From contig NC_043996.1 of NCBI RefSeq assembly GCF_902150065.1, positions 24,924,745-24,988,744 of the forward strand: 64,000 bases of DNA, in the 5' to 3' direction. Below, piece after piece: positions 9,675 through 45,792 of this stretch (position 1 is the stretch's first letter; each line of letters begins with the position of its first letter). Origin of the DNA: Myripristis murdjan. Its lineage: Eukaryota. Under the pieces are notes generated by a model that worked only from the letters and a program-made list of their open reading frames with translations, did no database searches and had not been told where the DNA came from. The position numbers and the translations under genes were made by a program.

Positions 9675-9711
<37 letters not shown>

Positions 9712-9830: not shown

Positions 9831-9845
9831 ATACAGTACAGATGA

Positions 9846-9918: not shown

Positions 9919-9920
<2 letters not shown>

Positions 9921-10388
9921 GATACATACACACACAAACACTGTCCTTGGTCTGATTTGCGGTAAAACACCAGGGCCTCTAAATGAGTTTCCAGAGAAGA
10001 CGCATCACGATCAGAGAGCTCAAGGCGTCTGTCACTGGTGATGCTTTGTTTTCCACGTCACCGTCAGCTCGGCCTCTGTTTCCTGTGAAATATGAAACAC
10101 AAAGTTGGCACGTCCGGAGAGGGGAGACTGGCAGCCAAAGTACATAACAAATAATTAAAAACAAATAAAAAGGAATCTGGGTCAGCTCAGCACCTTTACT
10201 TGCCTGAGGGATCACACTCACGCTGTGGTTCCTTCTCTCAGTATCAGTTGTGTCCATCAGTCACTCCAGGGTTTGGTTTATTTTAGCGGTTCTCTGGAAC
10301 TCAGGCACCATCACTAAATTAAATGTGTCACGCAACCTCCCGTTTGTCAGTCCACCGCGTCAGGATGGGAAATGTATCTCTATCAACT

Positions 10389-10389
<1 letters not shown>

Positions 10390-10438
<49 letters not shown>
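10390..10438. repeat. (TCTA)n tetranucleotide microsatellite
   Basis: tctatctatcta.. Confidence 0.95.
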
Positions 10439-10976
10439 CATAAAATTTAATTAAGTTAGTACAAAGCTTATAGTGATCAATGTTGTTAATCAGAGTTGCA
10501 GCTGAACCTCATTTTCAAGGGACTTCTCCATTTTTCCACATTTCACTGAATTACATCATTAATTCAATTCAAATTGGACTTTTTTTTGTTATTAATTGTT
10601 TTTTATTTATGTATGTATCATTAACAATTGAAAAACAATCAACATAATGCTCTTGTTCCATACATAAAATACATTATATAGCAGACAAGAAACAATAAAA
10701 GAAAGAAAAAGAAAAAAAATGGACTTAAATAGAACAGAATTAAGATAATACAAAGGTTTTTTTGTTTGTTTGTTTGTTTGTTTGTTGCGATTTTGCCAAC
10801 AGTTTAATTTGGGATTGTTTCATGGCAAGATTTCTTTTGTAACGTTGCAGTAAATAATAAAATATAATAATAATAATAAAAGTAATCCCTTCAAATAATT
10901 CAAAGTAGTGTAATTGTTTTATTTTTCTCTCATGTTGCATCCAAATTTCGTTGAAATAAAAAATAAAATAAAGTAA

Positions 10977-11007
<31 letters not shown>

Positions 11008-15476: not shown

Positions 15477-15867
15477 TTAGAGGAATACGCCAATGCTTTG
15501 GGCAAAATACCCATACGCAGACTGAGACAAGGTGTTCGATACTGTTTTCACCTCTGTATGTCCAGTGGTTCAGTTCCTATGGGTAGCATTTTGTGTTAGC
15601 TTAGCATAAAGACTTTAATTCTATGGGAGTCGTTAGCCTAACTCTGTTGAAGTGCTAAAATAAACAGTACAGCAACTCAGAAGCTGTCTAATTTACATAG
15701 TGTATTATGTGGATTTGAAATACATTCCTCTACATATCTCTTGTTTTATTTACAAAATCCCAAGGTGTATTTTAATATGGTATGGACACGGTATCGAACA
15801 TCTTGTGTCAATGTGGGCAAGTCGGAAAAATGGGATTTTAGCCCAAAACATTGGAGTATTCCTTTAA
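15477..15867. mobile_element. MITE, same family as 3963-4250 (copy 2, with internal insertion), in calpain intron 4
   Basis: Shares TIRs and the internal block GTTAGCTTAGCATAAAGACTT..CTATGGGAGTCGTTAGCCT..GTGGATTTGAAATAC with copy 1; ends ...CATTGGAGTATTCCTTTAAac. Confidence 0.7.
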
Positions 15868-16245
15868 ACTTGAAAAGTGTTGCACACAACAAGTGCTGTG
15901 GACTCTGGAAAAGGGTTTTTACTATTTATCATCATGTTTTCTCACTGGTGGAAATTTATTTTCGGCATAAATATGATAATGTGGTGCAAATACAGTATTT
16001 TTGAGAAGCCTAAGTGATGATCAGATGTGTAGCCCAGAGTGTTCTGTAAGAATGATATCCAACATAAACACAGCATCATCTATACTTATGAAAAACTAGT
16101 TGGACATAGGAAATAACATTTACCAAAAAGGGCTTTTTGATGAAGAAATGTGGTATACAAAGCTGTTTCTATGCATAAAATAAAGTATGAAATCATTTTT
16201 TATTTTTGAAGCACCTATTAAAATATGACTTTGTATTTCTTGCAG

Positions 16246-16420
16246 GGTGTGTGGCTCCTACGCAGACATGAACGCTGGGACTCCCTCCGAGGCTTTGGTG
16301 GATTTCACCGGCGGCGTTCACATGAGCATTGACCTGTCAAAGGCTCCTTCAAACCTGTGGCAGCTCATGTTTAGCGCAGCCCAGTCCAAGTCGCTGATGG
16401 GCTGTGGTACGCCCCAGGGG
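16246..16420 (+). CDS. calpain exon 5
   Basis: tgcag|GGTG..GGG|gtaagt; KVCGSYADMNAGTPSEALVDFTGGV...LMGCGTPQG. Confidence 0.85.
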
Positions 16421-16936
16421 GTAAGTGTACACACTCCACTCCAAACAACACACACTGTATGCCACTTGTGATTTATGGTCAATGCATATTTAATATTCAA
16501 TTTGAAATTCAGTAAAAATACAAACAAATGCTGCTCTTTGGTTAAATAATTTGTGAAAAACTGCAACAAGCTTGGTGTGTTAAAACTGACTCCCTCTAGA
16601 TTTTTTGGTAAAATCAAAGTGAGGCTCATTCTTTAAAAGCCACGTGCTGCAACAACACATTAGCAGTTTTAAATTTTTTGCTGGTGGTCACAACTAAAAG
16701 GTGTAATAAGACAAGAGGACTGGTTGGGTAAAGGCTCACTTATCTATTAAACTCTTTTTCTTTGATTGACACCAGCTTATATACTGAAAGTCATTTCATT
16801 TTAGTAGTAATTTCAGTTTTGTAGTTTTAGTTCACATAGAATCCATGGCAATGTAATGACTGATTCAGTCATCTTTGTACGTTATTTCTGTGAATCCATA
16901 CCCAGTCAACAGTAATGACATGTGTGCATCTTGTAG

Positions 16937-28567: not shown

Positions 28568-28727
28568 TCACCACAGTGACGAGTAGTTGAACCGGATCCG
28601 CAGCAGGTACCTCATGCGGGTCTGGGCGGGGTTGTAGACTATGTACTCGTTGTAGAGAAGCGAGTAGCCGCCGGCTTTCCCCACGCCCGTCTTCACCGAG
28701 GGTCCCATCGGCACCGTCGCCCCGTCT
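28568..28727 (-). CDS. parp2: parp2 terminal exon with TGA stop
   Basis: (TC)n tract + ttag|A GAC; LDGATVPMGPSVKTGVGKAGGYSLLYNEYIVYNPAQTRMRYLLRIRFNYSSLW* (human ...NYNEYIVYNPNQVRMRYLLKVQFNFLQLW*). Confidence 0.9.
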
Positions 28728-28735
28728 CTAACAGC

Positions 28736-28838
<103 letters not shown>

Positions 28839-29761
28839 GAGAAATCAGAGTGATGGAAATGAGAACTGATTTTGTACAAATCAGACCAAAAAGTACATCT
28901 GACTTTGATCTCAGGGCTGTGGCTCTACATGAAATACACGTTTCATGGCCCTATGACTCTTGTCTAGTAAAACACTCTAGCTTTTCTTGGAGGTCTATAA
29001 AGGAGAAGCAGCACAGAGGAAGGGAAGGAAGAGCAAAATAAGAACGACACAAGGTCAGTCCATTAGGATATGAGTCACTGAAGAGGAACTTGAATTCAGC
29101 ACTTAGTACTTTGATTTGATCGAAGTGTTGTGACCCCAAATTGCACCGTGTCAGAATAAAAGACACTGACATTTCTGCGGGGTTGTGGGAAAACGGCTGC
29201 AGACGAACAGATCTACATAATCAGCAGAAACATGGGGCTAGGTAAGATTAAGAGCGGAAGACAGACACAGTGACGAGGCACATTTAACTAAGTGGTGCTC
29301 AAACAAAACACTCAAAAGGTCACAGAGGATGGCAGGAAAGTGCGGCAGACACAATAACAGCGCATGCATAGCTTTGTGAAACGCAGACAGAAACACCTCG
29401 GAGACGTCCTCAACGCTCAATTTGTGCCAGTGCATTTCCGGTGTAATCACAAAAATATAGATATATTTTCTGTTCGTATTCCCTTTCAGAAACAAGATAA
29501 TGTTAGAAATATGTTTTGGCAGATTGGTAATAGCTGCTATAACAAGAATTATTTTAAGCTGGTGGTCTACGTTCAATACATTTCATTATCTTATATTCCA
29601 TTTTTATTCAACTTCTTTAGAGCATTATTTATTATTTGTTCATCAACGTGCAATGGCTAAATTTACCCTGAGGTTATTAAGTTCATTTTTAGAAACAGAC
29701 AGGTTATATAATGACTGTTGTTTGTGTAATGGAGGAAAACAGTAGAATGAGAGAGACTGAC

Positions 29762-29886
29762 AGGGTGACAGAGTTCGTGGGATCAGGTCCAGTCTGTCCC
29801 AGGCCCTTGGTGCTGTGTTTCCCAGCAGGCAGCTTGTTGGCCTCGTAGTCGGCGTCCAGCAGCTCGTTACAGTCTCCCAGCGCGAC
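29762..29886 (-). CDS. parp2: parp2 exon 16 (catalytic)
   Basis: tttgcag|GTC..CCCT|gtcagt; VALGDCNELLDADYEANKLPAGKHSTKGLGQTGPDPTNSVT. Confidence 0.85.
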
Positions 29887-30844
29887 CTGCAAACACACAC
29901 ATCAGCGTGGAGATTTGAGCAGCTGACGGAGATGCAGTGAAATTTGTCTTTGGTAGAAAGATTGCAAAGGGTCGTCCATCACACACTGGCTTGTTATTTT
30001 TTTTGAGACAGCAAAATTTGACCGACTTCTGTTGTCAAACTTTGTCCCAGCTGGCCACCGTACACTCTCTCTGACCACGAGCAGCTCAAATTAATGAAAA
30101 ACATCTATAAATCAGGCTATTAAAGCACAGAGTTAGACCCCGCTGGAGGGAATGTGGAGAAATCATGGTTAATCGTGCTCACATCTTCTGGACTTGACCC
30201 TAAATTCAGACTTTCTGAAAGGAACTAGCAACAATCATCTAAAAAAGATGATATCTACCTCTTAAAAATCTTGCTGGCAGCGACTAAAAAGGCCACAGAA
30301 AAATCATCTCACTGTTGACTGCTGTATCAATACTGTTAAACACCCACATCTTTTTAGAAAAAATGACCTTCTCCATATGACACCAACCAGAAATGGGAGA
30401 AAAACGGTGGGAAAACCAAGTGTTAGTTTTGCCAACGAGACAGATTTTCCATGATTATTGCATGTGCCATGTGTGAGACTTCACTTTAAATTAAGCAAAT
30501 CAGCCTTGATTTACTGATCGTGGCCTCCTGTTTGTTTTGTTTCTTGTCATTGGTTTGTTTTTTGAGAAATGTTCATAAATGAAAAAGTTTGCGGCAGTTT
30601 TGTCCAAACACGTACAGCACAAGGCAGCAAATCCACAGATATCAGCCGTCCAAAGTAATAAATAAAAATCTCAAAACAGTCAGGTGTGCTCACTAGGACA
30701 TACAACTCAAAAAGGAAGAAGAACCTGCAGGCATTCAATTACTGTTTTTTTTCTGTCTCTGATGTGCTTTGGTGTAGATTTGCATAATAAATGTTAAACT
30801 GTTAAAGTACAAAATGATCAAAATATTTTTTTAGTTTCACCCAC

Positions 30845-30943
30845 CTCACTCAGTAGCAGCAGCCCCACGTTGCTGCGCTGGTTGGCAAAACAGTAGTTGG
30901 CGCTCTTTGACGACATGTCAGCAAAGTAGATGCCTTTACCAAA
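30845..30943 (-). CDS. parp2: parp2 exon 15 (catalytic)
   Basis: tgtccag|TTT..GAG|gtgggt; [33 protein letters not shown]. Confidence 0.9.
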
Positions 30944-31329
30944 CTGGACAAGAGACAAACAGGGAGCTCAGCACAACGCGCTTCATCACAAAAATGCTGG
31001 AAAAAAAAATTCATCACCCAGTTTTTGGAAATATAGGTTTTGATACTAAAAATGTTAATGTTTTGGGAGGAAAATGCTTAGTACGGCCAATAACTGGTTT
31101 TACAAAGCAAATGTTTTACTTTTGAGCAGCCGTTTCAAAAAGTTACTCCAGTACATGTAAAACTCCTCTCTTCCCCCAAACTCATTTGTTCTCCATCTCT
31201 CCAATCCCCTCCAGGATTGATGAATTAAACGACAGATTGAGTGATTGGGTAAAAAAAAAAGAAAGAGTGAAAATAAACAATAAATGAATCAAGAGCAGGT
31301 GTAAGTGTGTCTCTGTTCATCCATCCTAC

Positions 31330-31429
31330 CATGTACCCAGTGACGGGGGCTTCTGGTGGGGCGACCCTGAGCCCCTGGCTGAGGATGCCAACCCAGTTAG
31401 ACAGGCGGGAACCATGCCACAACAGCATC
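31330..31429 (-). CDS. parp2: parp2 exon 14 (catalytic, H-G-S NAD+ site)
   Basis: (CA)n in intron then catcag|G ATG..ATG|gtagga; [34 protein letters not shown]. Confidence 0.9.
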
Positions 31430-31437
31430 CTGATGGA

Positions 31438-31438
<1 letters not shown>

Positions 31439-31478
<40 letters not shown>
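31439..31478. repeat. (CA)n microsatellite in a parp2 intron, adjacent to the exon 14 acceptor
   Basis: acacac x20. Confidence 0.9.
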
Positions 31479-31480
<2 letters not shown>

Positions 31481-31687
31481 TTACATGGAGTGTGCAAAGG
31501 GGAGTTCATCATCAGCGTCACAAATTCAGTGACACCAATCAAATTAGAGTGTAGCTTTTTCGAGACAAATATGAAAGTAGCTCAGGTTTCAGTGGCATCT
31601 GAGACAACAAAACCAGTTTCACACACACACACACACACTGAAACATGACAACCATTTGCATAAACAGCAGCTGTATTCAGATATTAC

Positions 31688-31815
31688 CTGTTGTGCATCT
31701 GTGACAGGAAGTTGTCCCTCTCCCCCGCCCTGTCCACCGAGAAGATGTCCAGCACAGTCATGGTGTAATCTCTGTGAGTCGTGGCGTGAGTGGACTGCAG
31801 GTACTTCTCTATCAC
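31688..31815 (-). CDS. parp2: parp2 exon 13 (catalytic domain start)
   Basis: tgtgaag|GTG (AAG acceptor)..AACAG|gtaata; VIEKYLQSTHATTHRDYTMTVLDIFSVDRAGERDNFLSQMHN. Confidence 0.75.
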
Positions 31816-33373
31816 CTTCACAGAGAGAAGAGGGGTTACAGAGAGTTAGCTGATGTTTACTGTCGGGAAATTATTTCACTATCAAACACCATCGTAGCTG
31901 TGCTGAAAATATCTTGATGTGTGTGGCAACAGGTTGTCAACATTTGTGTTTTAGGGGTGGATTTTTGATTTAATGGAAACCTTGCACCATGTTTAACAAC
32001 TATTTTCCCCAATATAAATACCTGAATCTGAGACATGTTGAGGCGTACATGACCTACAGAACTACTGGTTACAGGATAAATAAAGCTACATTATGCTATC
32101 TAGGATTACTTGATTGTTTTGTTACATTTGAAAGACCCAATTACCCAATTAATTAGTGCCCAATTAAGCTGTTTAGAATATTGGATAATATTACACAGCC
32201 CAAGAGAAGTTTTAATAGTTTGATGCTCTTTGACATGGACACATTAGTCCTAGTTTGTACCATGTGACTGAATTTGGTTGATTTATAGATTCATTCTCTG
32301 ATCCTTAAAGTAATAGGACTGGTTCTTATCCATACAGAGGTATTTCCTAATCCATGCAAGTGTAATAGATCCTCCAATTGTCACCCGACGACTTTGCTTA
32401 CACAACAGCTCCCCTCAGCGCTCTATGTTTGTTTACACACCTGGTAGGTGAAGCTGTTGTGTAGTGATACAGAAATAAAGCAGCAGTTCCACAACTTGGC
32501 AAGCAAGACGGCTAGAAAAGAGCATCGATAATGAATCCCAAAGAATGTGTGCTGTTGTGCATCTTTCAAAACATCTCAGCTTTAGGTTGCTGATCCAAAT
32601 CGTGTTGTTTGCTGGTTTCGTTTCGGAGAAGAACAGTCCCAGTGAAGCTCTCGTTCTTGCAACAAAAAGCTGAGCAGCCAGACTTGGAAGATCTATTACC
32701 AGGGTTTCTACACATTTTATTTTTCCATAGTCCATGCTTTTCCAGACCTTCATTTTCAGATTTCATGGTACATTTTTTTCAGCCTGCTGATAACTAAAAG
32801 TTATTCAGGGTTTTAAATTATTTAGGCCTCAAATAACAGATATGCCCAGTGCAGAGGATGCTTTTAAAAGCTCTGTGTGCTTCTTGCCTTCTGTATGACT
32901 TTGAATGACTGCCAAACATAATTGACACACTGCTTTTGCTTTGGATTTGGGATCCTTCGCTAACCATTTTGAATAACTGGGATGGGCTAGCCACCTATCG
33001 GAAAGTTTGTATTTGCCATGGGTCCTAGACTGGAGCTGAATGGGAGCAGCCACTATTGTGGCTGGCCAGGCTGTAGGGCAGAAGCCCGAAAAGGACAAAA
33101 GGAGGCATCTGACGTCCTTCAATGTAAAACATGACTGTCTGCAAATGGTTTTGACACTTTTTCCTCATTTTCCATACATTTCTAGACCTGTAAAATCATA
33201 CTTTTTCATGATATTTCAGACTGCGTAGGAACCTTGTATTACCACTATATAGCTAAGACTCCAAACTATCAGTTTAAATGTGTATCCTCTGGAGCGAATC
33301 AGCAGTGGTGTATCAGAACGGCTCGGTACCACCTGACTGCTCTCAGTACCGCTCAGCACAGCGTCACACTGAC

Positions 33374-33508
33374 CGTGTATTCGTGGCTGTTGGGGTCCAG
33401 AGGCTGCAGCTGGCAGCGGAGGGAGCTGTACTGTCGGTCCAGCGGATGCTCGTCACTGTCCTCTCTGGACTGGGCCATCTTCACCGCTATCTGGATGTCA
33501 CTCAGAGC
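33374..33508 (-). CDS. parp2: parp2 exon 12
   Basis: ccctcag|GCT..ACG|gtcagt; ALSDIQIAVKMAQSREDSDEHPLDRQYSSLRCQLQPLDPNSHEYT. Confidence 0.85.
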
Positions 33509-33829
33509 CTGAGGGAGGGAAGAGAAACAGTAGATTACCCTGGATTATGTACTGTGTTACAGGTGAATGGGTTAAAAGAACTGGTAGATTACTTTACATT
33601 GGACAGGCAGTAACTCAATATTGTCATCTGTGATACATAATTATGTCTAAATTGATGATAACTGGCACATTTTATTTAAAAACTCAAATAAAATGAGGTA
33701 TTTGACCATTTAATGTGATTTTGCTTGAGTAAGCCATATAATAATACATAAAAATCATAAGAACATAAATAATTTAATGCACCAAGCTGAAAAGACTTGT
33801 ATATCTCAAATAAAGTAGAGTTCCTCTAC

Positions 33830-33893
33830 CTCCAGCAGGGCGATTTTTTCCTTCAGCTCATCTTCTGTGCGGATGATGGGAGGAGTTTTTAAC
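33830..33893 (-). CDS. parp2: parp2 exon 11
   Basis: ttccag|G TTA..GAG|gtagag; LKTPPIIRTEDELKEKIALLE. Confidence 0.85.
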
Positions 33894-34061
33894 CTGGAAA
33901 ATCAGATCCCAACGTTACATTACTAACTCGTCAAGATCCCAGCTAATGTGAGACACTCTGAGAGTCATCGTATTAAACATTATCTCCTACATCAGTTCTG
34001 TAATTTCAGGGCCTCGTCAGTGTTAGCGTGTTCCCTAACTACTGAGTTGCACATTTCTTAC

Positions 34062-34200
34062 CCAAAGTCATGTGGGATTCGTGTGTAGAACTGGTTGCAC
34101 GCGTCCAGCAACTCGCGATTGCTGCCCTTCTTCTTCAGACACGCCTCGATCCTCTGCAGCGCCATGTAGCCTGCACGGATCTGCTCGGACGTCAGCTTGC
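34062..34200 (-). CDS. parp2: parp2 exon 10 (regulatory domain)
   Basis: ctgcag|GC..TTTGG|gtaaga; GKLTSEQIRAGYMALQRIEACLKKKGSNRELLDACNQFYTRIPHDFG. Confidence 0.9.
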
Positions 34201-34695
34201 CTGCAGACAGACGGAGGAAAACCAAACTGAGCCAGTGATACTAACACATTCACAAACAGCACCAGTCAGAAAGACAATAAAAAAAACAATAAAAAGGGTA
34301 TCTTTAAATCTGGAAATTACTGTGTATAAAATAAATTGAATTGTTTGAATAAATTGTCTCATGTTCAGAGTGTACAGTGGTCAGCAGAGAGAGGCACTGT
34401 GTACAGCTGAATCATTCAAAACGTACTAACTCTGAAAGTGATCGGTGCGTCAGGTGATCTTTTCTGATTTAGATCAATTCTATAAATATTAATAACAGGT
34501 TCATAACAGGTAATATTCAGGTGTATATGTGGATTCATATGTACAATGACCACAGGATGTCTTATGATGCTTCTTTCCTCGGTGTGTGAGGTCCTGCTGC
34601 TGCACACTGTGCCCCGATGAACTGACAAACTGTACGTTTTCAATATTTCTCTGGAACAATATTTCCTGTAATGACTCCGATTCAGACAAACTGAC

Positions 34696-34849
34696 CGAGA
34701 GGAGCTTTACGTGTGTCGAACTTCATCTCCAGCACACACTCCTCCATGGCCTTCAGGTCACAGATGAGCTCCAGGAGAGACTGGACCTTCATGTCCAGCT
34801 TTGAGGGCTTCTTCTTGGGCACAGCGTCCACCACAGTCTGGCTCTCCTC
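34696..34849 (-). CDS. parp2: parp2 exon 9 (PARP regulatory helical domain)
   Basis: tttccag|GAG..CTCG|gtcagt; EESQTVVDAVPKKKPSKLDMKVQSLLELICDLKAMEECVLEMKFDTRKAPL. Confidence 0.85.
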
Positions 34850-34996
34850 CTGGAAAGGTGGAAAACATTTCAATTAATGGGCAAAGAAAGAAAGAAAGAA
34901 AGAAAGAAGGAGGGAATGTAAAAAGGAGGTAAATTTGAGCCTCTCCATCAGTATCGGTCAGGATCACTGTCCGATACTGATGGAGGTGATGCTTGC

Positions 34997-35099
34997 CTTT
35001 CCATTGGCGCTGTAGTCCATCAGCACCATGTCATATTTTCCAGCCACTTTCTCAAAGTTAGCCCGCTGTTCCCACTCGTTCTTGGTCTTGTCAAGGAAC
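34997..35099 (-). CDS. parp2: parp2 exon 8 (WGR end)
   Basis: cctcag|G TTC..AAG|gcaagc (GC donor); FLDKTKNEWEQRANFEKVAGKYDMVLMDYSANGK. Confidence 0.75.
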
Positions 35100-35193
35100 C
35101 TGAGGCGAAAACAAACCAGCCCATTTCAGAGTTTCACAAAACCCACTTCCACGCGGGACATCTGAAACTCATTTTCCAATTATTCAATCTCAC

Positions 35194-35269
35194 TTTTTCT
35201 TGAAGACGTCTTTGGCTTTCAGCAGGTCTCCGCCACAGCCTGTCAAGCTGTTCTGGCCCACTTTACCCA
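35194..35269 (-). CDS. parp2: parp2 exon 7 (WGR)
   Basis: ctgcag|TG..AAAAA|gtgaga; VGKVGQNSLTGCGGDLLKAKDVFKKK. Confidence 0.85.
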
Positions 35270-35500
35270 CTGCAGAGACAAAATAAAAAAACAAAAAACA
35301 TCACTGCAGGGTTAAAATATCACCAACAGGACAGGAAACTCCCACCACTGTTTCTCCAAAGTACACAGTTAGATTTTACCAGAATTTTTTGGGCTGCTGT
35401 TCATTTCCAAACCAAACTAAGACACAGAGTTTTCAGCGATCAAGCGCATGAACTTCTCTTCGTTCCACCTGCATCAGCGTGTAAAACGTGTAAAACCCAC

Positions 35501-35597
35501 CTCTGCCCCATCTCATCCACACACTGTAGGCCTTCGAGTTGTCGTCCTCCAGCAGCTGGATCAAGTAGTACTTGTTGTTGTTGAACTGAAGATTTGT
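35501..35597 (-). CDS. parp2: parp2 exon 6 (WGR)
   Basis: ttgcag|ACA..AGAG|gtgggt; TNLQFNNNKYYLIQLLEDDNSKAYSVWMRWGR. Confidence 0.9.
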
Positions 35598-36090
35598 CTG
35601 CAAAAAAAAGCCGCAGAAAATGTTTACTGCAGAGTTCACTCCAGCACAGTTACTGTTCCCTCAGTTCAAAAAGGAAAACTGACACAATTATGATAGAGGC
35701 TTCACTCAATAACTTCCTTTTTAAAGACTGATAGTAAGAAATAAATATTAGGTTTGTACTGTCAGCTGTGTATTATCTGATGTCACAATTTAGTTTAAAT
35801 TCACTTTTCATATGAGCAATACTGAAACGTTTCATTTCATTTACAGTCTGAAAACTGTCAAGATAACTGCTGGTGAAAATAACTACAGTTAAGTTATTTC
35901 ATCAATATATGATGAATACTCAGAGCTACAATATCGCCCAGATTTTCATCCCATCAGACGAGCCTATATACCGCAAAACATTACAGCTTCTGAATTTTGA
36001 ATGATATGTACTGTACTGGGTAAATGAATACTTCTCAGCCGTCAGATCCATTTGATTCAGTCCATTATTTTATTTTTTAAAAATTATTAC

Positions 36091-36141
36091 CTGGTTTAGC
36101 ATCACGTCATACACGTCGCTTCCTTCGCTGTAAACGTGGGC
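36091..36141 (-). CDS. parp2: parp2 exon 5 (WGR domain start)
   Basis: catgcag|GCC..CAG|gtaata; AHVYSEGSDVYDVMLNQ (human AHVYCEGNDVYDVMLNQ). Confidence 0.9.
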
Positions 36142-36761
36142 CTGCATGGACGAGAGAGGAAACATACCATGAATAAAGCTGAGATCATTCGTAACAAAAG
36201 AAAACAAAAAACAAAACTTTTTCTGACAACTTCTCATGTCTTTTCTGTACTTTGGCTTGTACATGCTCTTTTTTTTTTAGCCTAAACTTTTTCTTTTACC
36301 TAGACAGACCTCATAAATAAACATTATATGTTCAAAATCACCAGGAAGAGAGAACATCATTGAGCAAAAAAATGACATTATAGGACAACAGAAAAACTGT
36401 AGGATTATAAATTTTAAAAATTAAATTAAATTTAAAAAAGGCAGTCAAATGTTATTTTCTGTGTTAACTTTGTATTTCACTAAATACAAAATAACTGAAT
36501 CGAGTCAGTATCTAAATCAACCAAGACAAGCTACTAAAGAATGAGCCTTTCTCTTCTCTTATAATAGCAATAATGAGGATTTAGCATGGCATCTCCTGTA
36601 GTTATTCACTATTTGATATTTTTAAGATAAACTCATGGTATGGATATACTTTCAGTTTTACCCATCCACCTCGCACATCTTTATTATGTGAAATTTAAAA
36701 GTTGAAGGAATATTTTTCAAATCTATTTACTGGTGATTTTTGTTCTTCTAATTGTCTAAAG

Positions 36762-37160
36762 CAGTGATTCTCAAAGAGGGACACGCGTACCCCCTAGTGG
36801 TATATTGGAGTACTGCCGGGGGTACATGGGATTTTTTTCAACATTAATTTAATATTTTTAAGTCATGCATAATTCATAAAATAATTAGCTTACGCTGAAA
36901 TAAGTTTGATTATAAATGAAAATGTCAGTTTGTCTTCGGTATTCCCTCCTCGGGTTTGACGAAGGTGTTGTTGTGGTTTAAATGGTTTAAATTAAAGACG
37001 TTTGTTCACTATGACCAGGAAGCCAGACAAAAACTGAGAAAATGGATTTGTGGTTTCAAGGAGAAAGAAGAGAAGAAGACGCCGAAACAGAGCCGACAAA
37101 ATATCGTCAGTATCAGGTTGTTGTTTCAGACGTTGAAAAAAATTTGAGAACCACTGCTCT
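36762..37160. mobile_element. MITE with ~20-bp TIRs (CTAAAGCAGTGRTTCTCAAA), in parp2 intron 4
   Basis: 5' end CTAAAGCAGTGATTCTCAAAGAGGGACACGCGTACCCCCTAGTGG; 3' end TTTGAGAACCACTGCTCTAAAGCG is its reverse complement. Confidence 0.65.
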
Positions 37161-37267
37161 AAAGCGTAACTTAAATTAATTTGTGTTTGATTCAAGACCA
37201 AAAATAAAGCAGTGACACACGGTTGAATCATAACTCATGAATGTGAAGCTCTCTGCAGACACTTTAC

Positions 37268-37338
37268 CTTTCCAAGTTTGGCTTTGCACTCAGAGTCCAC
37301 CGGAGCTTTGCCCTTCATCACCACCGTCTTCACGACCT
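37268..37338 (-). CDS. parp2: parp2 exon 4
   Basis: tgcacag|AG..AAG|gtaaag; EVVKTVVMKGKAPVDSECKAKLGK (human VKALLLKGKAPVDPECTAKVGK). Confidence 0.85.
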
Positions 37339-37530
37339 CTGTGCAACATACAAACAGTTTACATGAATGACAGTGAATTTCCATTTCTAACACAGAGAGA
37401 GAGAGAGAGTAAACAGCCACCTGACGTTTGAACGAAACACAAAGCATCTTTCTCTCTGTCTTCATCCACCCGTTTGCCCATTTTAAAACAATCATGTAAA
37501 AAAAAAAATATGTAAATGAAATGCACACAC

Positions 37531-37692
37531 CTTTACTTTCCATTTCTTCTTTGGGTGCCTCTTTAGTTTTTGTCTGTCTTTTGCTCTGCCCCCTCTTCCT
37601 CTTAGCAGCCGGCTGCTCCTCCTCTTCCTCTTTAACTTGAACTGGACTCTCATCTTCACGTGATGGGTCACCGCTTCCATTCAAACCTGGAT
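37531..37692 (-). CDS. parp2: parp2 exon 3 (acidic/basic linker, KRKR NLS-like)
   Basis: tandem acceptors ccag|ATCCAG|GT (37692 or 37686), donor AAAG|gtgtgt; DPDPGLNGSGDPSREDESPVQVKEEEEEQPAAKRKRGQSKRQTKTKEAPKEEMESK. Confidence 0.7.
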
Positions 37693-38032
37693 CTGGATCG
37701 AAAAGAGTCAAAAGTAAATAAAATAAAATAAAATAAAATAAAGTAAAATAAAAGACAAAATAAAATAAAATATTGACTACTTTACTTTCAATAAGCTTTT
37801 TAATTAGCAAAGAAAATAATAATAATGATAATAATAATAATAATTATAATAATAATTTAATGTTTAGGTGATAAAAATGTGGATATGAAAATAGTTCACC
37901 TTAAAAAAAAAGTAATAAAATAAATAATAATAATAATAATAACAGTTATAATTGTTGTTATTATTATTAGTAGTAGTAGTAGTGGTAATATTAATATTAT
38001 GTTTGTGAAGCCCCACATCCACCTGTTTTTAC

Positions 38033-38233
38033 TGTCTGACAGCGGATTTTCCTCTGGTATTTGGTGACAGGGTTCTTCTGGACCATCTTCTTCAGGTCGA
38101 TGACGTACGAGGCTCCTGAGCTCAGCGTCACGGTGACGGACGATTTCCCCGTGGAGACGGCCGAGTCCAACGAGGTGCAGGCCGATGGAGAGAACGGCTC
38201 CCACTGGCCCTCGTCTCCCTGCCACTGCCACAC
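38033..38233 (-). CDS. parp2: parp2 exon 2: WWE domain (WQWQGDEGQWEPF...GKSSVTVTLSSGASYVIDLKKMVQKNPVTKYQRKIRCQ)
   Basis: (TC)n polypyrimidine + cag acceptor at 38233 and AG|gtaaaa donor at 38033; 201 nt, symmetric phase 1-1, no stops; matches the WWE consensus of RNF146/PARP11-14 (WxW..G.W..Y ... GKSSVSLSL ... Y.IDF..M.Q.N..T...R.IRR). Confidence 0.7.
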
Positions 38234-38236
38234 TGA

Positions 38237-38253
38237 GGGGGGAGGGGGAGAGG

Positions 38254-38288
<35 letters not shown>

Positions 38289-38302
38289 GGAGAGGGAGAG
38301 AC
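38237..38302. repeat. G/A-rich (GA)n/(GGGA)n tract; on the minus strand it is a polypyrimidine tract feeding the WWE-exon acceptor
   Basis: gggggagggggagagggagagagagagag... Confidence 0.9.
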
Positions 38303-38574
38303 TTAGGCCTGCACACTTTATCAAAGATAAAACTGCAGTCTGTACAACCTGTAGCTCCCCAAACCACGGCTGCTCAAAATGGACTCCTAACTATTGATAT
38401 GATAAATCCGATATTCTGCAGCTGAGACCCAGTTCTGACCTTTAAATTAAATCACACAAAGTAAAAAGAAATACTGCAACTGCATACAAACAGTCAGTTT
38501 TGAGCAGCCACACTACAGTATTTATTTTTAATATGTAAGTCAGTGATATAAGCAGAATCAGAAAAACTTGATTG

Positions 38575-38678
38575 TTGCCTGTGGGGAAACTGGGTCAGCT
38601 GCTCAAATTCTCACAAAGAGAAATAGATTCTAAGACATACAAAAAGAAATAAGAAATATAAAGTCATGTGCCTTAAAA

Positions 38679-38721
<43 letters not shown>

Positions 38722-38810
38722 TGTTAATTATGTGGATTAATGGCACAAAATACTACAACAATAAAAACAGAAGTAAGAAATTAAGCATATGTTAAAAAAA
38801 AAAAAAAAAA
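38575..38810 (+). repeat. interspersed repeat family, copy B (same as 7441-7680), carries a long poly(A) at 38685-38726
   Basis: TGGGGAAACTGGGTCAGCTGCTCAAATTCTCACAAAGAGAAATAGATTCTAAGACATACAAAAAGAAATAAGAAATATAAAGTCATGTGCCTTAAAAATTTG..AAGAAATTAAGCATATGTTAAAAAA. Confidence 0.65.
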
Positions 38811-39332
38811 ACTCTGCCCACCTTATATTGGATGTTTTTTTTTTCCTTTTATTGCTTTTATAAATGGAATCATGGTCAATACTATTTCGGGGTTTTTTTG
38901 TGACAAGAATGTACCAAAAAGAAATCTTTAAAAATAATATCAATCAATTAAAAATATACAAGGTAAAAGAAGTGAGTTAATTAACTAACAGAGTCCTGAA
39001 AAATAATGCCAATTAATTAACTTATTTTTCATTATCTGACATGACTTTGTAGAAATCTGTTTTCACTTTGCATTTAAAAAGTTTTTTGGTATATTCTTGT
39101 CAAAAAAAGCCAAATTATATTGAGCATGATTCCTTTATAAAAGCAAGAAAAGGGGAAAACATCCAAGCCGGTGAATGTCTTAATGTTAGTAGACAAGGAA
39201 CTATTTAAAACCTGAGGAGTTTATTTTATTTTATTTTTTTAATTTTACTTGATTTTGAAAAGTGCTCTATAAATGAAGACTTTTATTATTATGACTACAC
39301 ACTCGATTTCAGTCTAACCCCCCCTCACCCAT

Positions 39333-39334
<2 letters not shown>

Positions 39335-39400
<66 letters not shown>
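39335..39400. repeat. (CA)n microsatellite in parp2 intron 1
   Basis: acacac x33, followed by (CACT)n. Confidence 0.9.
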
Positions 39401-39402
<2 letters not shown>

Positions 39403-39719
39403 ATCCACTCACTCACTCACTCACACACACATAGGATTTCCATTGAGACTCAGTTAGTTGAGGGGCGGGCACGAACAGGTTCCACTTTCGATGACAGAGT
39501 TAGCATGTAGCAGGCCTGAATACACACACAGAGGGTTGTTTGTTTGCTGAAACCTTGTCAACAGCAGCATCAGCAGCAGCAGCACCGGAGCGCGGCAGTG
39601 TGTGCACACCGCAGACGGCGCTCCTCTGCCCGGACACGTCCAGCCGGCCGTGCCGCTGTCTCTCCCGTCGGGCTGCTTTACCTGCGATAAAAGCAACAAC
39701 AACAACAAACAAACACCGA

Positions 39720-39795
39720 CCTGTTTTTGACGGCACATCTCCGCTCTCTACCGCACTCTCTGCTTTACTCCTCGACCCTCTTGTTCGCCGCATCA
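39720..39795 (-). CDS. parp2: poly(ADP-ribose) polymerase 2, exon 1 with ATG (basic N-terminus MMRRTRGSRSKAESAVESGDVPSKT)
   Basis: ATG at 39793-39795 (minus); donor ACAG|gtcggt, phase 1; upstream is GC-rich promoter-like sequence. Confidence 0.7.
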
Positions 39796-41200
39796 TGTAA
39801 ACAAAACAACAAACAAAAGTAAAAAAGACAAGGAAGTGACCAGGAAGAGGCGGGAAACTGTCCCGGCAGCTTCTGTCAAGCGGCGCCACTAAAGATCGTC
39901 TATTGACCTGATGGCTCACTCGACGGCTAAAAATGTTGACCATCACGTTGACCCTCACGCATGCCGTTACCATAGCAACCAATCTGGTACAGACCTTAAA
40001 TAAGGCGCCTTGATTTAAAAAAAGAAAGAAAGGAAGAAAGAAGGAAAAAGAAACAAGCAAACAAACATGCTCAGTAGTTTGTGTTTATGTGTAATTTTGT
40101 CCACATACTTTCCCCCCTTTATTTGTGTAAATTCAAGTCAACTACATGAAGTAAACATGTTACATACACCAGAAAGGTTCCTATTCATATACCTCAGCAT
40201 AAAAATGATAAAAAAATAAATAAATAAAAATGAGTTACAATGAACAATAAACTGCAAAATCTATGGAAAAGAGAAGAAGAAAGAAAGAAAGAAAGAAAGA
40301 AAAAGAAAGAAAGAAAACAAATTAGGGTCTGCTAACTGGACTAAATTTGAAATGTCATAGTAATCTCACAGTTTTTGCCAATTTGTGATTTCTAAGTTTT
40401 AAATTTTCAGTTGTGCATAGGCAGAGTTTGAAATTTGCGCTGGGGGGGGCAAACATTTTTTTTTATTATTATTTTATTTATTACAATACCAAACATAATG
40501 TAATTCAAATTTATTTCTGAAAATAATCTTATTTTATTGCATTGCTTAAATGTTTATAGATATGTATACAGGAAAAAAAAAATATTGGACCTATTTTTGA
40601 CTCAGTGTAGTGACACATTTCAGACGCTAGGGGGGGCAATGCCCCCCCCCGCAAACTCCGCCTATGCAGTTGTGGTCAAACGTGTTTTAAAATCAGAATC
40701 TTGAAAAACATAAAAGGAGTACTTTATATGTTTCTTGCTAAATCATATCATGGATATAATATATAGCTAAAACAATAAACATCTGCCGAAAGAAACGGGA
40801 TTGTCAAACATGATCAAAATATTTAGCCGTGTCAGCATTAAATCTTCCGTAAATTCTGTGAATCAAACCAAAAAGAAGCACTAGGAGACCAACCTACACA
40901 AACGTGTTCAATGAAATGTTGCTTTAACAGGATAGTCCCTCGCCTACATACTGTGACGATATCACTCCGCAACATCAGCGCATCAGTCTGGTTCGACGGG
41001 ACCCGGAAACAGAGGCGGAGTGAGCGCTCTTCACTTCATTAGGTGGAACAGAACTTTTTTTTTTTAACGAAGGTTCCGTCTTGTCTGGAGGTCGGAGTTA
41101 TTTTGTTGGAGGACCAGTTGAAGCCCAGCGTGCGGGGTTGGAAGTTGTGCGGGCTGAGCGGCGGGTGTTCCAGCTGTTTTAACGCAAGAAATCAGGAGAT
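39796..41200. promoter_or_regulatory. divergent (bidirectional) promoter region between parp2 (-) and mettl17 (+)
   Basis: The two start codons are 1.4 kb apart in head-to-head orientation; GC-rich segments 39540-39700 and 40930-41200; inference from gene arrangement only. Confidence 0.4.
40403..40680. mobile_element. inverted-repeat (MITE-like) element in the parp2/mettl17 intergenic region
   Basis: CAGTTGTGCATAGGCAGAGTTTGAAATTTGCGCTGGGGGGGGC at the 5' end vs GGGGGGGGCAATGCCCCCCCCCGCAAACTCCGCCTATGCAGTTGTGG at the 3' end (reverse complements over ~35 bp); AT-rich interior. Confidence 0.5.
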
Positions 41201-43792: not shown

Positions 43793-44511
43793 GTGGGGAT
43801 CACAGTCCTTCACTCTCCGCCGATCAAACTTTTGGCAGGAAAAGTCGGTTTGACTCGACTGGGCCAGACGCATGACACGCACATCTGACAGGAAAAGGGA
43901 GAGGACTGTAGTTTGTGCTGCGTTTAGTGACGTAGGAGAATTAGTTGGGGTGACTTTATGGCTCAAAAATAAAAATAATGATCATGATTGCACCCATTAA
44001 ACTGGTGCATTCATACATTACACACCTTTTACCCTCTACTCATTCCCTTTTAACGGTTTTATTCCTTGAAAAGTCAAAAACTGTGCCCTCAGAATGATTT
44101 TGTGATGATGATAATAACAGTATAATAACAACAACAACAACAGTTATAATAATAATATTTTATTTACATAGTACCTTTCATACAGGGGGTGTAGCAAAGT
44201 GTTTTACAATAAAGTGAAAAAACAAGAGAATAAGATAAAACCAGGCAATTTAAAACAAGTGCCAAGCAGTCAATTGAATAACAAACAACAGAGGCAGCAA
44301 AAGAACAAATATCAGTAAGAAATACAATAAAATTATAGTGACTTGACCTTAAGAGGGAATTTATTTGTATATTCTCATCAGAAGAAAACATGTTGGGGGA
44401 GCACCACAGACTAATTTAGCCATAACGGATTTTCATCATTTTTTTTTTTTTTTTTTTTTTGACCTCTGGTGTGTTTTCATGCCTGATCTTCTCTCTGCTG
44501 TGTGTCTGCAG

Positions 44512-44585
44512 ATAAAGAAGAGAGATCCGTCCTTCGCTCCTCAGTCTCTCCTGGATTTTGGTTCGGGGTTAGGAACGGTGGTCTG
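44512..44585 (+). CDS. mettl17: mettl17 exon 6 (SAM-binding motif I DFGSGLG)
   Basis: ctgcag|ATA..GTCTG|gtcagt; [24 protein letters not shown]. Confidence 0.8.
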
Positions 44586-44670
44586 GTCAGTGTCCACATG
44601 AGCGTCAGCGGTGTCTTTATCTGTCCTGTATGACGGCACGTCCAGTCTTTACTCTGTTTTCTCTCCCCAG

Positions 44671-44765
44671 GGCTTCACACTCGTGCTGGGGGGACAGTTT
44701 GAAGGAGATGGTGTGTGTGGACAGCTCGGGGCCCATGAACACCCTGGCAGAGCAGCTTCTCAAAG
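44671..44765 (+). CDS. mettl17: mettl17 exon 7
   Basis: ccccag|G GCT..AAAG|gcacag (GC donor, inferred from frame); [33 protein letters not shown]. Confidence 0.6.
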
Positions 44766-44907
44766 GCACAGACAAACTTTAGTTCATTTACTGTAACACC
44801 TCCAGTTAACAACAAACCTCCCTTTATCAGTTATTGTGCCATACTTTACAAGATATAATAGATTTTACGTGAAAATCTGAGATTGTTCATTTTTTTGTGT
44901 TGAGCAG

Positions 44908-44978
44908 GCGACGACGAAAAAGCCGAACCTCACATCAAGCAAGTCTATTTCCGACAGTTCCTCCCTGTTTCGCCCAAG
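44908..44978 (+). CDS. mettl17: mettl17 exon 8
   Basis: gagcag|GC..AAG|gtgagc; GDDEKAEPHIKQVYFRQFLPVSPK. Confidence 0.75.
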
Positions 44979-45294
44979 GTGAGCTATTAGCAGAAAACCT
45001 GACTCTATATTCATTCGTAATAAACATAATTAAACAGAAATAATAAACAGAAATAATAAATAAACCGGTTTTTATCGCATGTTGCTTCAAAGAAACCACC
45101 AGCTGAAAATTTCTTTTGCTGTGTGGATAGGTGAACTTTGATTTCCAAAAATGATTCAAAGCCAAATACTCCCATCAATACACAACAAAAAAAAGCTTCC
45201 CTTTAAGAAATTGTCTGCATGCATGCATGGAGCGGCGATTATTGATAAGTTTTGCGTAGTGAAAGCCATGACAAGGCCTCGTGTCCCCCTCCAG

Positions 45295-45402
45295 GTGCAG
45301 TTTGACGTAGTGGTCGGGGCGTTTTCCCTCTCAGAACTGCCCAGTAAGAAGGAGCGAGATGAGATCCTGTTCACTCTGTGGAGAAAGACCAGCTCATATC
45401 TG
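45295..45402 (+). CDS. mettl17: mettl17 exon 9
   Basis: ctccag|GTG..CTG|gttggt; VQFDVVVGAFSLSELPSKKERDEILFTLWRKTSSYL. Confidence 0.8.
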
Positions 45403-45792
45403 GTTGGTTGAAATAATCACATCACACCACCTAGTCTGTATAATGTGCATACCTGATGCTGTATTTGCTCTGGCCTTTTGGACTGCACGTGAAATCCCGA
45501 TCTTGCTTCAAGTGCAAGTCTGAACTGTGACTCTGTGAGTTTATAATGTGTGCTCGAAACCATTTTCTTGCACATAAATGAATGAATTTTATTTATTTTT
45601 TGTGTATTGTCTTGCAACCCAACTCTTACTGGATTATAAGACACCATTTACACCATTAAGACAGCATTTAAACAATATTTGTATCGCTAAAGCTGAGATA
45701 AATATATCACGAAAATGTTCTCTGTCTGCAAATCCCATGTTTTCTCTCGATAATCAGCGACTGCAAAAACTTTTCATTTCATGTTGTTGTAG

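What the first reader, a model, noticed from the sequence alone, without database searches (positions are those of the whole stretch)
38033..38233. The WWE exon is a symmetric cassette (phase 1-1, length divisible by 3), so PARP2 isoforms with and without the PAR reader are possible
Because exon 1 ends and exon 3 starts in phase 1, skipping the 201-nt WWE exon keeps the frame and yields a mammalian-like PARP2. Including it adds the reader domain. This is the classic architecture of an alternatively spliced cassette and could give regulated switching between PAR-targeted and untargeted enzyme.
Basis: inference. Interest (0 to 1): 0.55.

Follow-up and report, generated by a model that had tools for sequence, protein, structure and literature searches.

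The report
Constitutive WWE exon of fish PARP2
This is exon 2 of a soldierfish PARP2 gene, encoding an already-described poly(ADP-ribose)-binding WWE domain; its frame-neutral length is real but ordinary, and nearly all fish gene models and transcripts keep the exon.

Summary
The window carries a complete 17-exon PARP2 gene on the minus strand, about 99 % identical to Myripristis murdjan PARP2. Exon 2 encodes a WWE domain (Pfam E = 2.6e-18). The coordinates are wrong. The exon is 38232..38023 (210 nt), not 38033..38233 (201 nt). Base 38233 is the G of the acceptor AG, and the GTAAAA donor at 38032 would cause a frameshift.

Symmetry is not diagnostic. Five of 15 internal exons are symmetric, including exon 3. 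The same single phase 1-1 WWE exon exists in Centroberyx, platypus and snake, so it is ancestral gene structure.

Other evidence points against a regulated cassette:
- it has the strongest polypyrimidine tract in the gene;
- its flanking introns are not conserved;
- synonymous divergence is normal.

Of 165 teleost sequences, 137 have the whole exon and only 3 show an exon1-exon3 junction. One of those is a RefSeq isoform (Channa argus X2).

WWE domains in non-mammalian PARP2 were published in 2014. Verdict: ordinary, mostly known; regulated switching is unsupported but not excluded.

The parts
28568..39796 (-). Complete PARP2 coding region: 17 exons, 649 aa, WWE-WGR-PARP_reg-PARP
   Evidence: tblastn exon map, splice-junction enumeration, corrected model and translation, Pfam on the full protein, 98-99 % identity to Myripristis murdjan A0A668ATM8
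39721..39796 (-). Exon 1 coding part (76 nt; MMRRTRGSRSKAESAVESGDVPSKT + G); ends in phase 1; donor CAG|GTCGGT at 39720-19
   Evidence: N-terminus conserved in 117 of the 137 sequences that have a complete WWE exon; e1-e2 junction seen spliced in transcript contig L004
38233..39720 (-). Intron 1 (1488 nt, phase 1), with (CA)n at 39334-39431 and poly(A) at 38685-38718
38235..38301 (-). CT-rich microsatellite on the transcribed strand, directly abutting the exon-2 acceptor; forms a 17/17 pyrimidine tract; absent in Centroberyx
38233..38234 (-).
38023..38232 (-). Exon 2, the WWE exon: 210 nt, phase 1-1, residues 26-95 (junction codons V26 and D96 shared with the neighbouring exons)
   Evidence: (PF02825 66.6 bits, E = 2.6e-18)
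38105..38107 (-). Codon Y68, aligned to RNF146 Tyr144; invariant in 121/121 sequences
38078..38080 (-). Codon Q77, aligned to RNF146 Gln153, the adenine-binding glutamine conserved in all WWE-ligand structures; invariant in 121/121
38051..38053 (-). Codon R86, inferred equivalent of RNF146 Arg163 (phosphate contact); invariant in 121/121
   Evidence: for invariance; mapping by the 'RKI' motif is inference (for the role of Arg163)
38084..38086 (-). Codon M75, the only Met in the exon; start of the many 5'-truncated 'short isoform' models (MVQINPVTKYKRKIR...)
38031..38032 (-).
38021..38022 (-). True donor GT of exon 2 (CAG|GTGGAT)
37693..38022 (-). Intron 2 (330 nt, phase 1), AT-rich with short tandem repeats
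37531..37692 (-). Exon 3 (162 nt, also phase 1-1): acidic/basic disordered N-terminal region with KRKR motif; second in-frame acceptor 6 nt downstream (AG at 37688-87)
   Evidence: P0007 supports the 37692 start
37268..37338 (-). Exon 4 (71 nt, phase 1-0), the conserved segment just upstream of the Pfam WGR match (residues 184-263)

Best explanation
Window 38232..38023 (minus strand) is exon 2 of the parp2 gene of Myripristis murdjan or a very close relative. It is a predominantly, probably constitutively, included coding exon that encodes the protein's single WWE domain. Its phase 1-1, 210-nt structure is an inherited 'one domain, one symmetric exon' feature of the ancestral vertebrate PARP2 gene, not a signature of regulated splicing. 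The domain is the second WWE of an ancestral metazoan tandem-WWE PARP2. Teleosts kept one WWE and therian mammals lost both; a frame-neutral exon would make such a loss easy (inferred). The WWE most likely binds the ADP-ribose/ADP moiety of poly(ADP-ribose), as the HUWE1, TRIP12 and DTX WWE domains do, and adds a PAR-docking module to the PAR-binding basic N-terminal region (inferred). Shown here: gene model, domain identity, exon boundaries, conservation, dominance of inclusion in models and transcript assemblies. Inferred: PAR binding, its role in recruitment, and the route of evolutionary loss. Occasional exon skipping is mechanically possible and is modelled once in RefSeq, but nothing indicates that it is regulated.
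For: Gene model and identity; 98-99 % identity to M. murdjan PARP2. WWE: PF02825 at 66.6 bits against a cut-off of 21.1. The nearest solved domains are DTX1 (6e-11), TRIP12, HUWE1 and RNF146. Y68, Q77 and R86 are invariant in 121/121 sequences, and Q77 aligns with the adenine-binding Gln. Inclusion: all 120 best hits to the full-length query carry WWE, and 115 of the 121 aligned sequences (including the window's own) have exactly 70 residues there. Of 165 sequences enriched for short forms, 137 are complete, 13 start inside the exon, 12 are downstream fragments and 3 are skipped. In the three all-Logan clusters examined, 17 of 18 variants are 649-654 aa and the one shorter (625 aa) still contains the whole WWE exon; salmon 649-aa forms sit on 70 and 36 contigs. 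A spliced e1-e2-e3 mRNA from a relative has a 210-nt exon 2. No cassette features: pyrimidine tract 17/17, donor PWM 2.2 within a gene range of -1.1 to 6.9; the block conserved with Centroberyx covers the exon plus only 4 and 9 nt, whereas e6-e8 carry 80-130 nt of conserved intron; dN/dS 0.28 with dS 0.50, not depressed. Ancestral structure: the WWE2 exon is a single phase 1-1 exon of 210 nt in Centroberyx and 213 nt in platypus and snake. Pfam finds two WWE stretches plus WGR and PARP_reg in platypus, frog, ray, oyster, snail, nematode and sponge (the frog model ends before the catalytic domain), and one WWE in tick and snake. This was published by Perina et al. 2014 (PMC4245714).
Against: No RNA-seq from this species was available, so the inclusion level is not measured. 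Assemblers and annotators favour the major isoform, so minor or tissue-restricted skipping would be under-represented. One RefSeq model (Channa argus X2, XP_067330338) is a clean exon-2 skip, and two genome-project models (Larimichthys TMS09902, Eleginops KAK5860334) also join exon 1 to exon 3. The lineage-specific CT repeat at the acceptor could in principle bind PTB-type repressors (own knowledge; not tested). The donor is only moderate. PAR binding by this WWE has not been tested biochemically.
Confidence: 0.8

Rival explanations
1. One reading: the WWE exon is a regulated alternative cassette, so the fish switches between a WWE-containing PARP2 and a mammal-like WWE-less PARP2.
For: Phase 1-1, 210 nt, and skipping yields an intact 579-aa PARP2. 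Channa argus RefSeq has X1 (650 aa) and X2 (580 aa), differing by exactly the 70 WWE-exon residues. Two further e1-e3 models exist. The donor is moderate, and a CT-repeat lies upstream of the acceptor.
Against: Symmetry is at chance frequency in this gene and is ancestral. The acceptor is very strong, the flanking introns are not conserved, and dS is normal. Only 3 of 165 sequences are skipped, and two of those are genome-project models without shown transcript support. Every full-length Logan transcript variant in the clusters examined includes the exon; the few much shorter Logan products are downstream fragments. The skip is not recurrent across RefSeq annotations that list several isoforms; those differ by 1-3 residues at junctions.
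Confidence: 0.1
2. WWE-less or WWE-crippled PARP2 does exist in teleosts, but it arises from alternative 5' ends (an alternative first exon or promoter, or intron-1 retention) that force initiation at the internal Met75, not from cassette skipping.
For: Thirteen of 165 sequences begin inside the exon, 12 of them at the Met75 position ('MVQINPVTKYKRKIR...' or a variant). Ten of these are 572-581 aa models from nine species, including NCBI isoforms (Sander X5, Gymnodraco X2, Monopterus X2, Pygocentrus X2) and the cDNA-derived Salmo salar NP_001133790. Cichlid X2 forms start at a lineage-specific Met after 'WQW'.
Against: M75 is the only Met in the exon, so any 5'-incomplete cDNA or transcript model defaults to this ORF, which is the expected annotation artefact. 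No alternative first exon was identified in the window. The promoter and exon-1 region is conserved with Centroberyx, but nothing in intron 1 is.
Confidence: 0.12
3. The exon is exactly as the reader delimited it (38033..38233, 201 nt), using the GTAAAA donor.
For: A GT follows 38033, and 201 is divisible by 3.
Against: Base 38233 is the G of the acceptor AG, so the real span to that donor is 200 nt and gives a stop codon in exon 3. The literal 201-nt reading puts the WWE out of frame. Homologs, the same-species protein and a relative's mRNA all contain the extra 'VK[TPA]' codons. The donor PWM score is -2.5.
Confidence: 0.01

Closest known systems
Non-mammalian metazoan PARP2 with N-terminal WWE domain(s) (Perina et al. 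2014, DNA Repair 23:4, PMC4245714; RefSeq/UniProt teleost 'poly [ADP-ribose] polymerase 2', e.g. Myripristis murdjan A0A668ATM8)
   Same: Same architecture (WWE-WGR-PARP_reg-PARP) and 98-99 % identical to the M. murdjan entry. The paper explicitly reports WWE domain(s) at the N-terminus of PARP2 in bird, frog and fish.
   Different: Nothing substantive. Teleosts have one WWE, whereas platypus, frog, ray, oyster, snail, nematode and sponge have two. The Ensembl model for this species has a different first exon.
E3-ligase-type PAR/ADP-ribose-binding WWE domains: DTX1, TRIP12, HUWE1, RNF146 (PDB 8r5n, 9bkr, 6miw, 3v3l; Wang et al. 2012; Commun Biol 2024, PMC11269756)
   Same: Best sequence matches among solved structures. 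The adenine-binding Gln and the Tyr equivalent to RNF146 Y144 are conserved and invariant across teleosts.
   Different: At the RNF146 Tyr107 position the fish domain has Trp, as HUWE1 and TRIP12 do, and the loop equivalent to the RNF146 Arg110 region is acidic (G-D-E-G). It is therefore more likely an ADP/ADPr-type binder than an iso-ADPr specialist like RNF146 (inference). It is fused to a PARP, not to an E3 ligase.
Therian mammalian PARP2 (basic N-terminal region-WGR-catalytic; 570/583 aa in human)
   Same: The WGR, regulatory and catalytic parts are orthologous (using a recalled human probe). The skip product (579 aa) would have the same architecture. The fish exon-3 region is a basic/acidic disordered stretch like the mammalian NTR, which binds PAR and recruits PARP2 (PMC6089979).
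   Different: The mammalian protein has no WWE. The fish gene has 17 coding exons; the human count of 16 is from memory and was not tested here.
Alternatively spliced symmetric cassette exons; the concrete example is Channa argus parp2 isoforms X1/X2 (XP_067330337 / XP_067330338)
   Same: Frame-preserving length, and in Channa a modelled isoform pair differing by exactly this exon.
   Different: No weak splice sites, no conserved intronic flanks, no reduced synonymous rate, and no recurrence of the skip across species' annotations.

Membership tests
WWE domain (Pfam PF02825) | Profile match above the curated gathering score | tested here: met
   66.6 bits for the exon peptide and 62.4 bits in the full protein, against a cut-off of 21.1
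WWE domain (Pfam PF02825) | Ligand-contact residues: adenine-binding Gln (RNF146 Q153), Tyr (Y144), phosphate-binding Arg (R163) | tested here: met
   Q77 and Y68 align to Q153 and Y144 in the HMMER alignment. Roles come from PMC11269756 and PMC10877565. Q77, Y68 and R86 are invariant in 121/121 sequences. The R86-to-R163 mapping is inferred.
WWE domain (Pfam PF02825) | Half-beta-barrel plus helix fold, and actual PAR/ADPr binding | not tested
   No structure prediction or binding assay was run. Binding is not testable with these tools.
RNF146-type iso-ADP-ribose-specific WWE | Tyr107 hydroxyl contact to the distal ribose, and a basic loop (Arg110, Trp114) for the distal phosphate | tested here: not met
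   The fish domain has Trp29 at the Tyr107 position and G-D-E-G in the loop, as in HUWE1 and TRIP12, which bind iso-ADPr weakly
PARP2 (clade 1 DNA-repair PARP) | WGR + PARP regulatory + PARP catalytic domains, and orthology to annotated PARP2 | tested here: met
   PF05406, PF02877 and PF00644 all match strongly. The best 120 hits are teleost PARP2 at 74-98 % identity.
Ancestral WWE-PARP2 gene structure | The WWE adjacent to the linker is encoded by one phase 1-1 exon of about 210 nt | tested here: met
   Window 210 nt, Centroberyx 210 nt, platypus 213 nt and snake 213 nt
Regulated alternative cassette exon | Frame-preserving (symmetric) exon | tested here: met
   210 nt, phase 1-1; but 5 of 15 internal exons share this property
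Regulated alternative cassette exon | Both inclusion and skipping isoforms observed in transcripts of the species | not testable with these tools
In other teleosts, 3 of 165 sequences are skipped, one of them a RefSeq isoform.
Regulated alternative cassette exon | Sub-optimal splice sites relative to constitutive neighbours | tested here: not met
   Pyrimidine tract 17/17, the best in the gene. Donor score 2.2, mid-range, using a simple PWM with recalled consensus frequencies for ranking within the gene only.
Regulated alternative cassette exon | Conserved intronic sequence flanking the exon | tested here: not met
   The Myripristis-Centroberyx alignment covers the exon plus only 4 nt and 9 nt, whereas other exons carry 44-130 nt of conserved intron
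Regulated alternative cassette exon | Reduced synonymous divergence from overlapping splicing signals | tested here: not met
   dS 0.50 in exon 2 against 0.21-0.58 in exons 4, 6 and 9 (two species only, small samples)

The most novel reading that the evidence does not exclude
Some teleosts genuinely make a reader-less PARP2, either by skipping the symmetric WWE exon (as modelled in Channa argus X2) or by alternative 5' ends that start at Met75. The ratio would be regulated by tissue, stage or genotoxic stress, tuning how strongly PARP2 docks on pre-existing PAR. The same frame-neutral exon would be what allowed therian mammals to discard the WWE altogether.
Probability: 0.1. Interest if true: 0.4.

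Novelty: already known. Interest (0 to 1): 0.15.

Why it matters
If WWE inclusion were regulated, fish would offer a natural on/off system for asking what a dedicated PAR reader adds to PARP2 (recruitment, branching of PAR), which mammals cannot provide. As it stands the evidence says the exon is an ordinary constitutive domain exon. The useful outcomes are a corrected exon boundary, a clean 17-exon gene model, and the point that the WWE-less mammalian PARP2 is the derived state, with platypus still carrying two WWE domains.

Tried and rejected
2. My first e8/e9 junction (GT donor at 34968) was wrong. The same-species protein showed a GC-AG intron instead (AAG|GCAAGC; e8 ends at 34997, e9 starts at 34849).
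3. Short 'isoforms' of 574-581 aa looked at first like skipped forms. Reading them showed they start at the internal Met of the WWE exon.
4. The first homolog search, with only the 173-aa N-terminus, returned just 6 odd hits because of the word index. The full-length query was needed.
The look-up of Channa X2 found no record.
6. An Rfam scan of the whole window found nothing at gathering score, so there is no RNase P RNA next to PARP2 here.
7. A regex classification of N-termini misfiled several sequences and was replaced by alignment-based classification.
8. Literature searches for a fish or zebrafish PARP2 WWE splice isoform found nothing relevant. Otto 2005 and Citarelli 2010 do not mention a PARP2 WWE.
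9. Structure prediction of the WWE was considered and not run, because the Pfam, PDB and residue evidence was sufficient for the question asked.

Full report
WHAT IS THERE. The window is vertebrate, fish-like DNA (GC about 0.33-0.48, many microsatellites). The finding lies in a gene on the minus strand. A tblastn probe located all PARP2 exons between 39796 and 28568; the probe was a human PARP2 sequence recalled from memory and was used only to find exons. Enumerating frame-consistent splice junctions, then correcting against the same-species protein, gave a 17-exon, 649-aa model. Pfam assigns it WWE (residues 26-89), WGR, PARP_reg and PARP catalytic domains. The protein is 98-99 % identical to Myripristis murdjan PARP2 (UniProt A0A668ATM8), so the window comes from that soldierfish or a very close relative.

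CHECK OF THE OBSERVATION. Exon 1 (39796..39721, 76 nt) ends in phase 1 at CAG|GT. Two GT dinucleotides could end the exon. The distal donor (CAG|GTGGAT, GT at 38022-21) gives 210 nt, phase 1-1, and the reading '…KIRCQTVKT|DPGLNG…'. The distal donor is confirmed in five ways:
- the same-species protein P0007 has that reading;
- genomic ORFs from other fishes run into the intron right after 'QTVK[PTS]';
- 115 of 121 aligned sequences (120 teleost homologs plus the window's own protein) have exactly 70 residues in these columns;
- the Centroberyx affinis exon is 210 nt with AG|TGTGGCAG…CCAG|GTGTGT, and its codons read GTGAAG rather than GTAAAA;
- an RNA-derived Logan contig from a close relative (SRR28040493) has exon-1 sequence joined to TGTGGCAG, exactly 210 nt, then exon-3 sequence, with 'GTAAAAGCAG' retained in the mRNA.
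The substance of the observation (symmetric, phase 1-1, divisible by 3, skipping keeps the frame) is therefore right. The coordinates and the length are wrong.

IS SYMMETRY INFORMATIVE? Five of the 15 internal exons (e2 210, e3 162, e5 51, e12 135, e15 99 nt) are divisible by three, which is exactly the one-third expected by chance. Introns 1, 2 and 3 are all phase 1, so exon 3 is also a 1-1 exon. The same WWE-coding exon is a single phase 1-1 exon of 213 nt in platypus and in a pit viper. The symmetry is therefore an old feature of the gene's architecture, shared across bony vertebrates.

IS THE EXON ALTERNATIVELY SPLICED? All 120 best database hits to the full-length protein carry PF02825. 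These include RefSeq isoforms X1, X2 and X3 of several species and 2-4 kb Logan contigs, which can only be spliced mRNA. Where several RefSeq isoforms are listed, they differ by 1-3 residues at the e2/e3 or e3/e4 junctions or in the first exon, not by the WWE exon. I then opened 20 of the 90 %-identity clusters, and also searched with the hypothetical skip isoform so that skipped forms would rank level with their siblings. Alignment-based classification covered 165 distinct teleost sequences, a set deliberately enriched for short forms:
- 137 have the complete WWE exon;
- 13 start inside it, 12 of them at the position of Met75, the only Met in the exon, which is where any 5'-incomplete transcript model would place its ORF; this group includes the cDNA-derived Salmo salar NP_001133790;
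- 12 are fragments that start further downstream;
- 3 have a genuine exon1-exon3 junction.
Of those three, Channa argus isoform X2 (XP_067330338, 580 aa) equals X1 (XP_067330337, 650 aa) minus exactly residues 25-94. The other two are genome-project models: Larimichthys crocea TMS09902, a species whose RefSeq protein has the WWE, and Eleginops maclovinus KAK5860334, a model with other irregularities. In the three all-Logan clusters, 17 of 18 protein variants are 649-654 aa and the one shorter (625 aa) still has the whole WWE exon. Salmon 649-aa forms are seen on 70 and 36 contigs.

SEQUENCE SIGNATURES OF REGULATION. Exon 2 has the best polypyrimidine tract in the gene, 17 of 17 pyrimidines, supplied by a CT microsatellite at 38235-38301. 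Its donor scores mid-range: 2.2, with the gene's donors spanning -1.1 to 6.9. The score comes from a simple PWM with recalled consensus frequencies and serves only to rank sites within this gene. Between Myripristis and Centroberyx the alignable block around exon 2 is the exon plus 4 nt upstream and 9 nt downstream, whereas exons 5-8 carry 44-130 nt of conserved intron. Nei-Gojobori estimates give dN/dS of 0.28 and dS of 0.50 for exon 2. That indicates purifying selection on the protein and no depression of synonymous change relative to exons 4, 6 and 9. None of the usual hallmarks of a conserved, regulated cassette is present.

WHAT THE DOMAIN IS AND DOES. The nearest solved WWE domains are those of the E3 ligases DTX1 (E = 6e-11), TRIP12, HUWE1 and RNF146, not PARP11 (E = 0.44). 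In that alignment Y68 and Q77 match RNF146 Tyr144 and Gln153. Gln153 is the glutamine that hydrogen-bonds adenine in every WWE-ligand structure (PMC11269756 and PMC10877565). Y68, Q77 and R86 are invariant in all 121 aligned sequences; R86 is the inferred equivalent of Arg163. At the RNF146 Tyr107 position the fish domain has Trp, as HUWE1 and TRIP12 do, and the loop that is basic in RNF146 is G-D-E-G here. The domain therefore looks like an ADP/ADP-ribose-type PAR binder rather than an iso-ADP-ribose specialist; this is inference. Calling it a 'PAR reader' is reasonable but untested. The contrast 'targeted versus untargeted' does not hold, because the mammalian basic N-terminal region itself binds PAR, is sufficient for recruitment and depends on PARP1 activity (Chen et al. 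2018, PMC6089979). The corresponding fish region, exon 3, is present in both hypothetical isoforms.

EVOLUTIONARY CONTEXT AND WHAT IS KNOWN. An exhaustive profile-free search of 1.84 billion representatives with the N-terminal 282 residues found many proteins matching from the WWE through the WGR domain. Naming them and scanning them with Pfam shows two WWE stretches followed by WGR and PARP_reg in platypus, a frog, an electric ray, oyster, a snail, a nematode and a sponge; the frog model ends before the catalytic domain. Tick and snake show one WWE by Pfam. So WWE-PARP2 is the ancestral metazoan form, teleosts retain one WWE, and the WWE-less 'mammalian' form is derived and apparently therian. 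Perina et al. [quoted passage not shown] Earlier surveys do not mention it. The exon and its domain are also annotated in Ensembl, UniProt and RefSeq for this and more than a hundred other fishes. I found no paper on WWE-exon splicing in PARP2.

VERDICT. The exon is real, its symmetry is real, and the boundaries needed correction. What is real is already known or ordinary. The alternative-splicing idea is arithmetically possible and has one RefSeq precedent in another fish, but every indirect test applied here points to a constitutive domain exon whose symmetry reflects ancestral gene structure. Confidence in that reading is about 0.8. I give about 0.1 to regulated skipping and about 0.12 to the separate, non-exclusive idea that WWE-less forms arise from alternative 5' ends. 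Direct junction counts from RNA-seq would settle it.

Noticed in passing
L002 (platypus CM014212.1) 1001-11572; protein P0243: Platypus PARP2 (XP_028933514, 686 aa) still has two WWE domains, so the loss of the WWE from 'mammalian' PARP2 seems to be therian rather than pan-mammalian. The literature found says only 'non-mammalian'.
   Followed up: partly
window 38084-38086 (Met75 codon, minus strand) and proteins P0142, P0197, P0219, P0210, P0228, P0229, P0231, P0233, P0236: Models of 572-581 aa from nine fish species, including cDNA-derived Salmo salar NP_001133790, start at the same internal position of the WWE exon (Met75). This is either systematic 5'-incompleteness or a real alternative start that cripples the WWE.
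   Followed up: partly
window 34989-34996 (minus strand), intron 8 donor: Intron 8 is a GC-AG intron (AAG|GCAAGC). A GT-only search picked a wrong junction that added 7 spurious residues, and the same-species protein confirmed the GC donor.
   Followed up: yes
window 38235-38301: A (GA)n/(CT)n microsatellite abuts the exon-2 acceptor and supplies an unusually long CU-rich tract on the pre-mRNA. It is absent at the same place in Centroberyx. It could be simply a strong pyrimidine tract or a PTB-type binding site.
   Followed up: no
window 37686-37694 (minus strand), exon 3 acceptor: There are two in-frame acceptors 6 nt apart (…CCAG|ATCCAG|GTTTG…), so a 2-residue (Asp-Pro) variant is possible. 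In other fishes RefSeq X1/X2/X3 isoforms differ by 1-3 residues at exactly the e2/e3 and e3/e4 junctions.
   Followed up: partly
window ~44365-45411, + strand: Exon-like ORF fragments of an Rsm22/METTL17-type methyltransferase (PF09243 at 23.3 bits on a 29-aa fragment) lie head-to-head upstream of PARP2, as in the Centroberyx locus. No RNase P RNA or any other Rfam family is found in the window, unlike the mammalian PARP2-RPPH1 bidirectional pair (the latter is from memory).
   Followed up: partly
window 39963-40003, 37159-37233, 35973-36012: Short non-coding blocks conserved with Centroberyx: one upstream of exon 1 (promoter region) and one each in introns 4 and 5. Function unknown.
   Followed up: no
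protein P0001 (Pungitius pungitius LOC134105232): This RefSeq 'uncharacterized protein' is a chimera of the PARP2 WWE, N-terminal region and start of WGR fused to a 7TM-receptor fragment. It is probably an assembly or annotation artefact.
   Followed up: no
L003 (Protobothrops LD639098.1) ~4981-5767 and ~15809-16601; protein P0230: The snake PARP2 model (932 aa) contains a duplicated WGR-PARP_reg block with identical exons about 10.8 kb apart. This is likely an assembly duplication and not a real tandem.
   Followed up: no
cluster of P0244 (Crassostrea gigas PARP2; Logan transcripts): Oyster tandem-WWE PARP2 transcripts come in 744/741-aa and 690-aa forms, several contigs each. The 51-54-residue difference was not located and could be a genuine splice variant in an invertebrate.
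   Followed up: no
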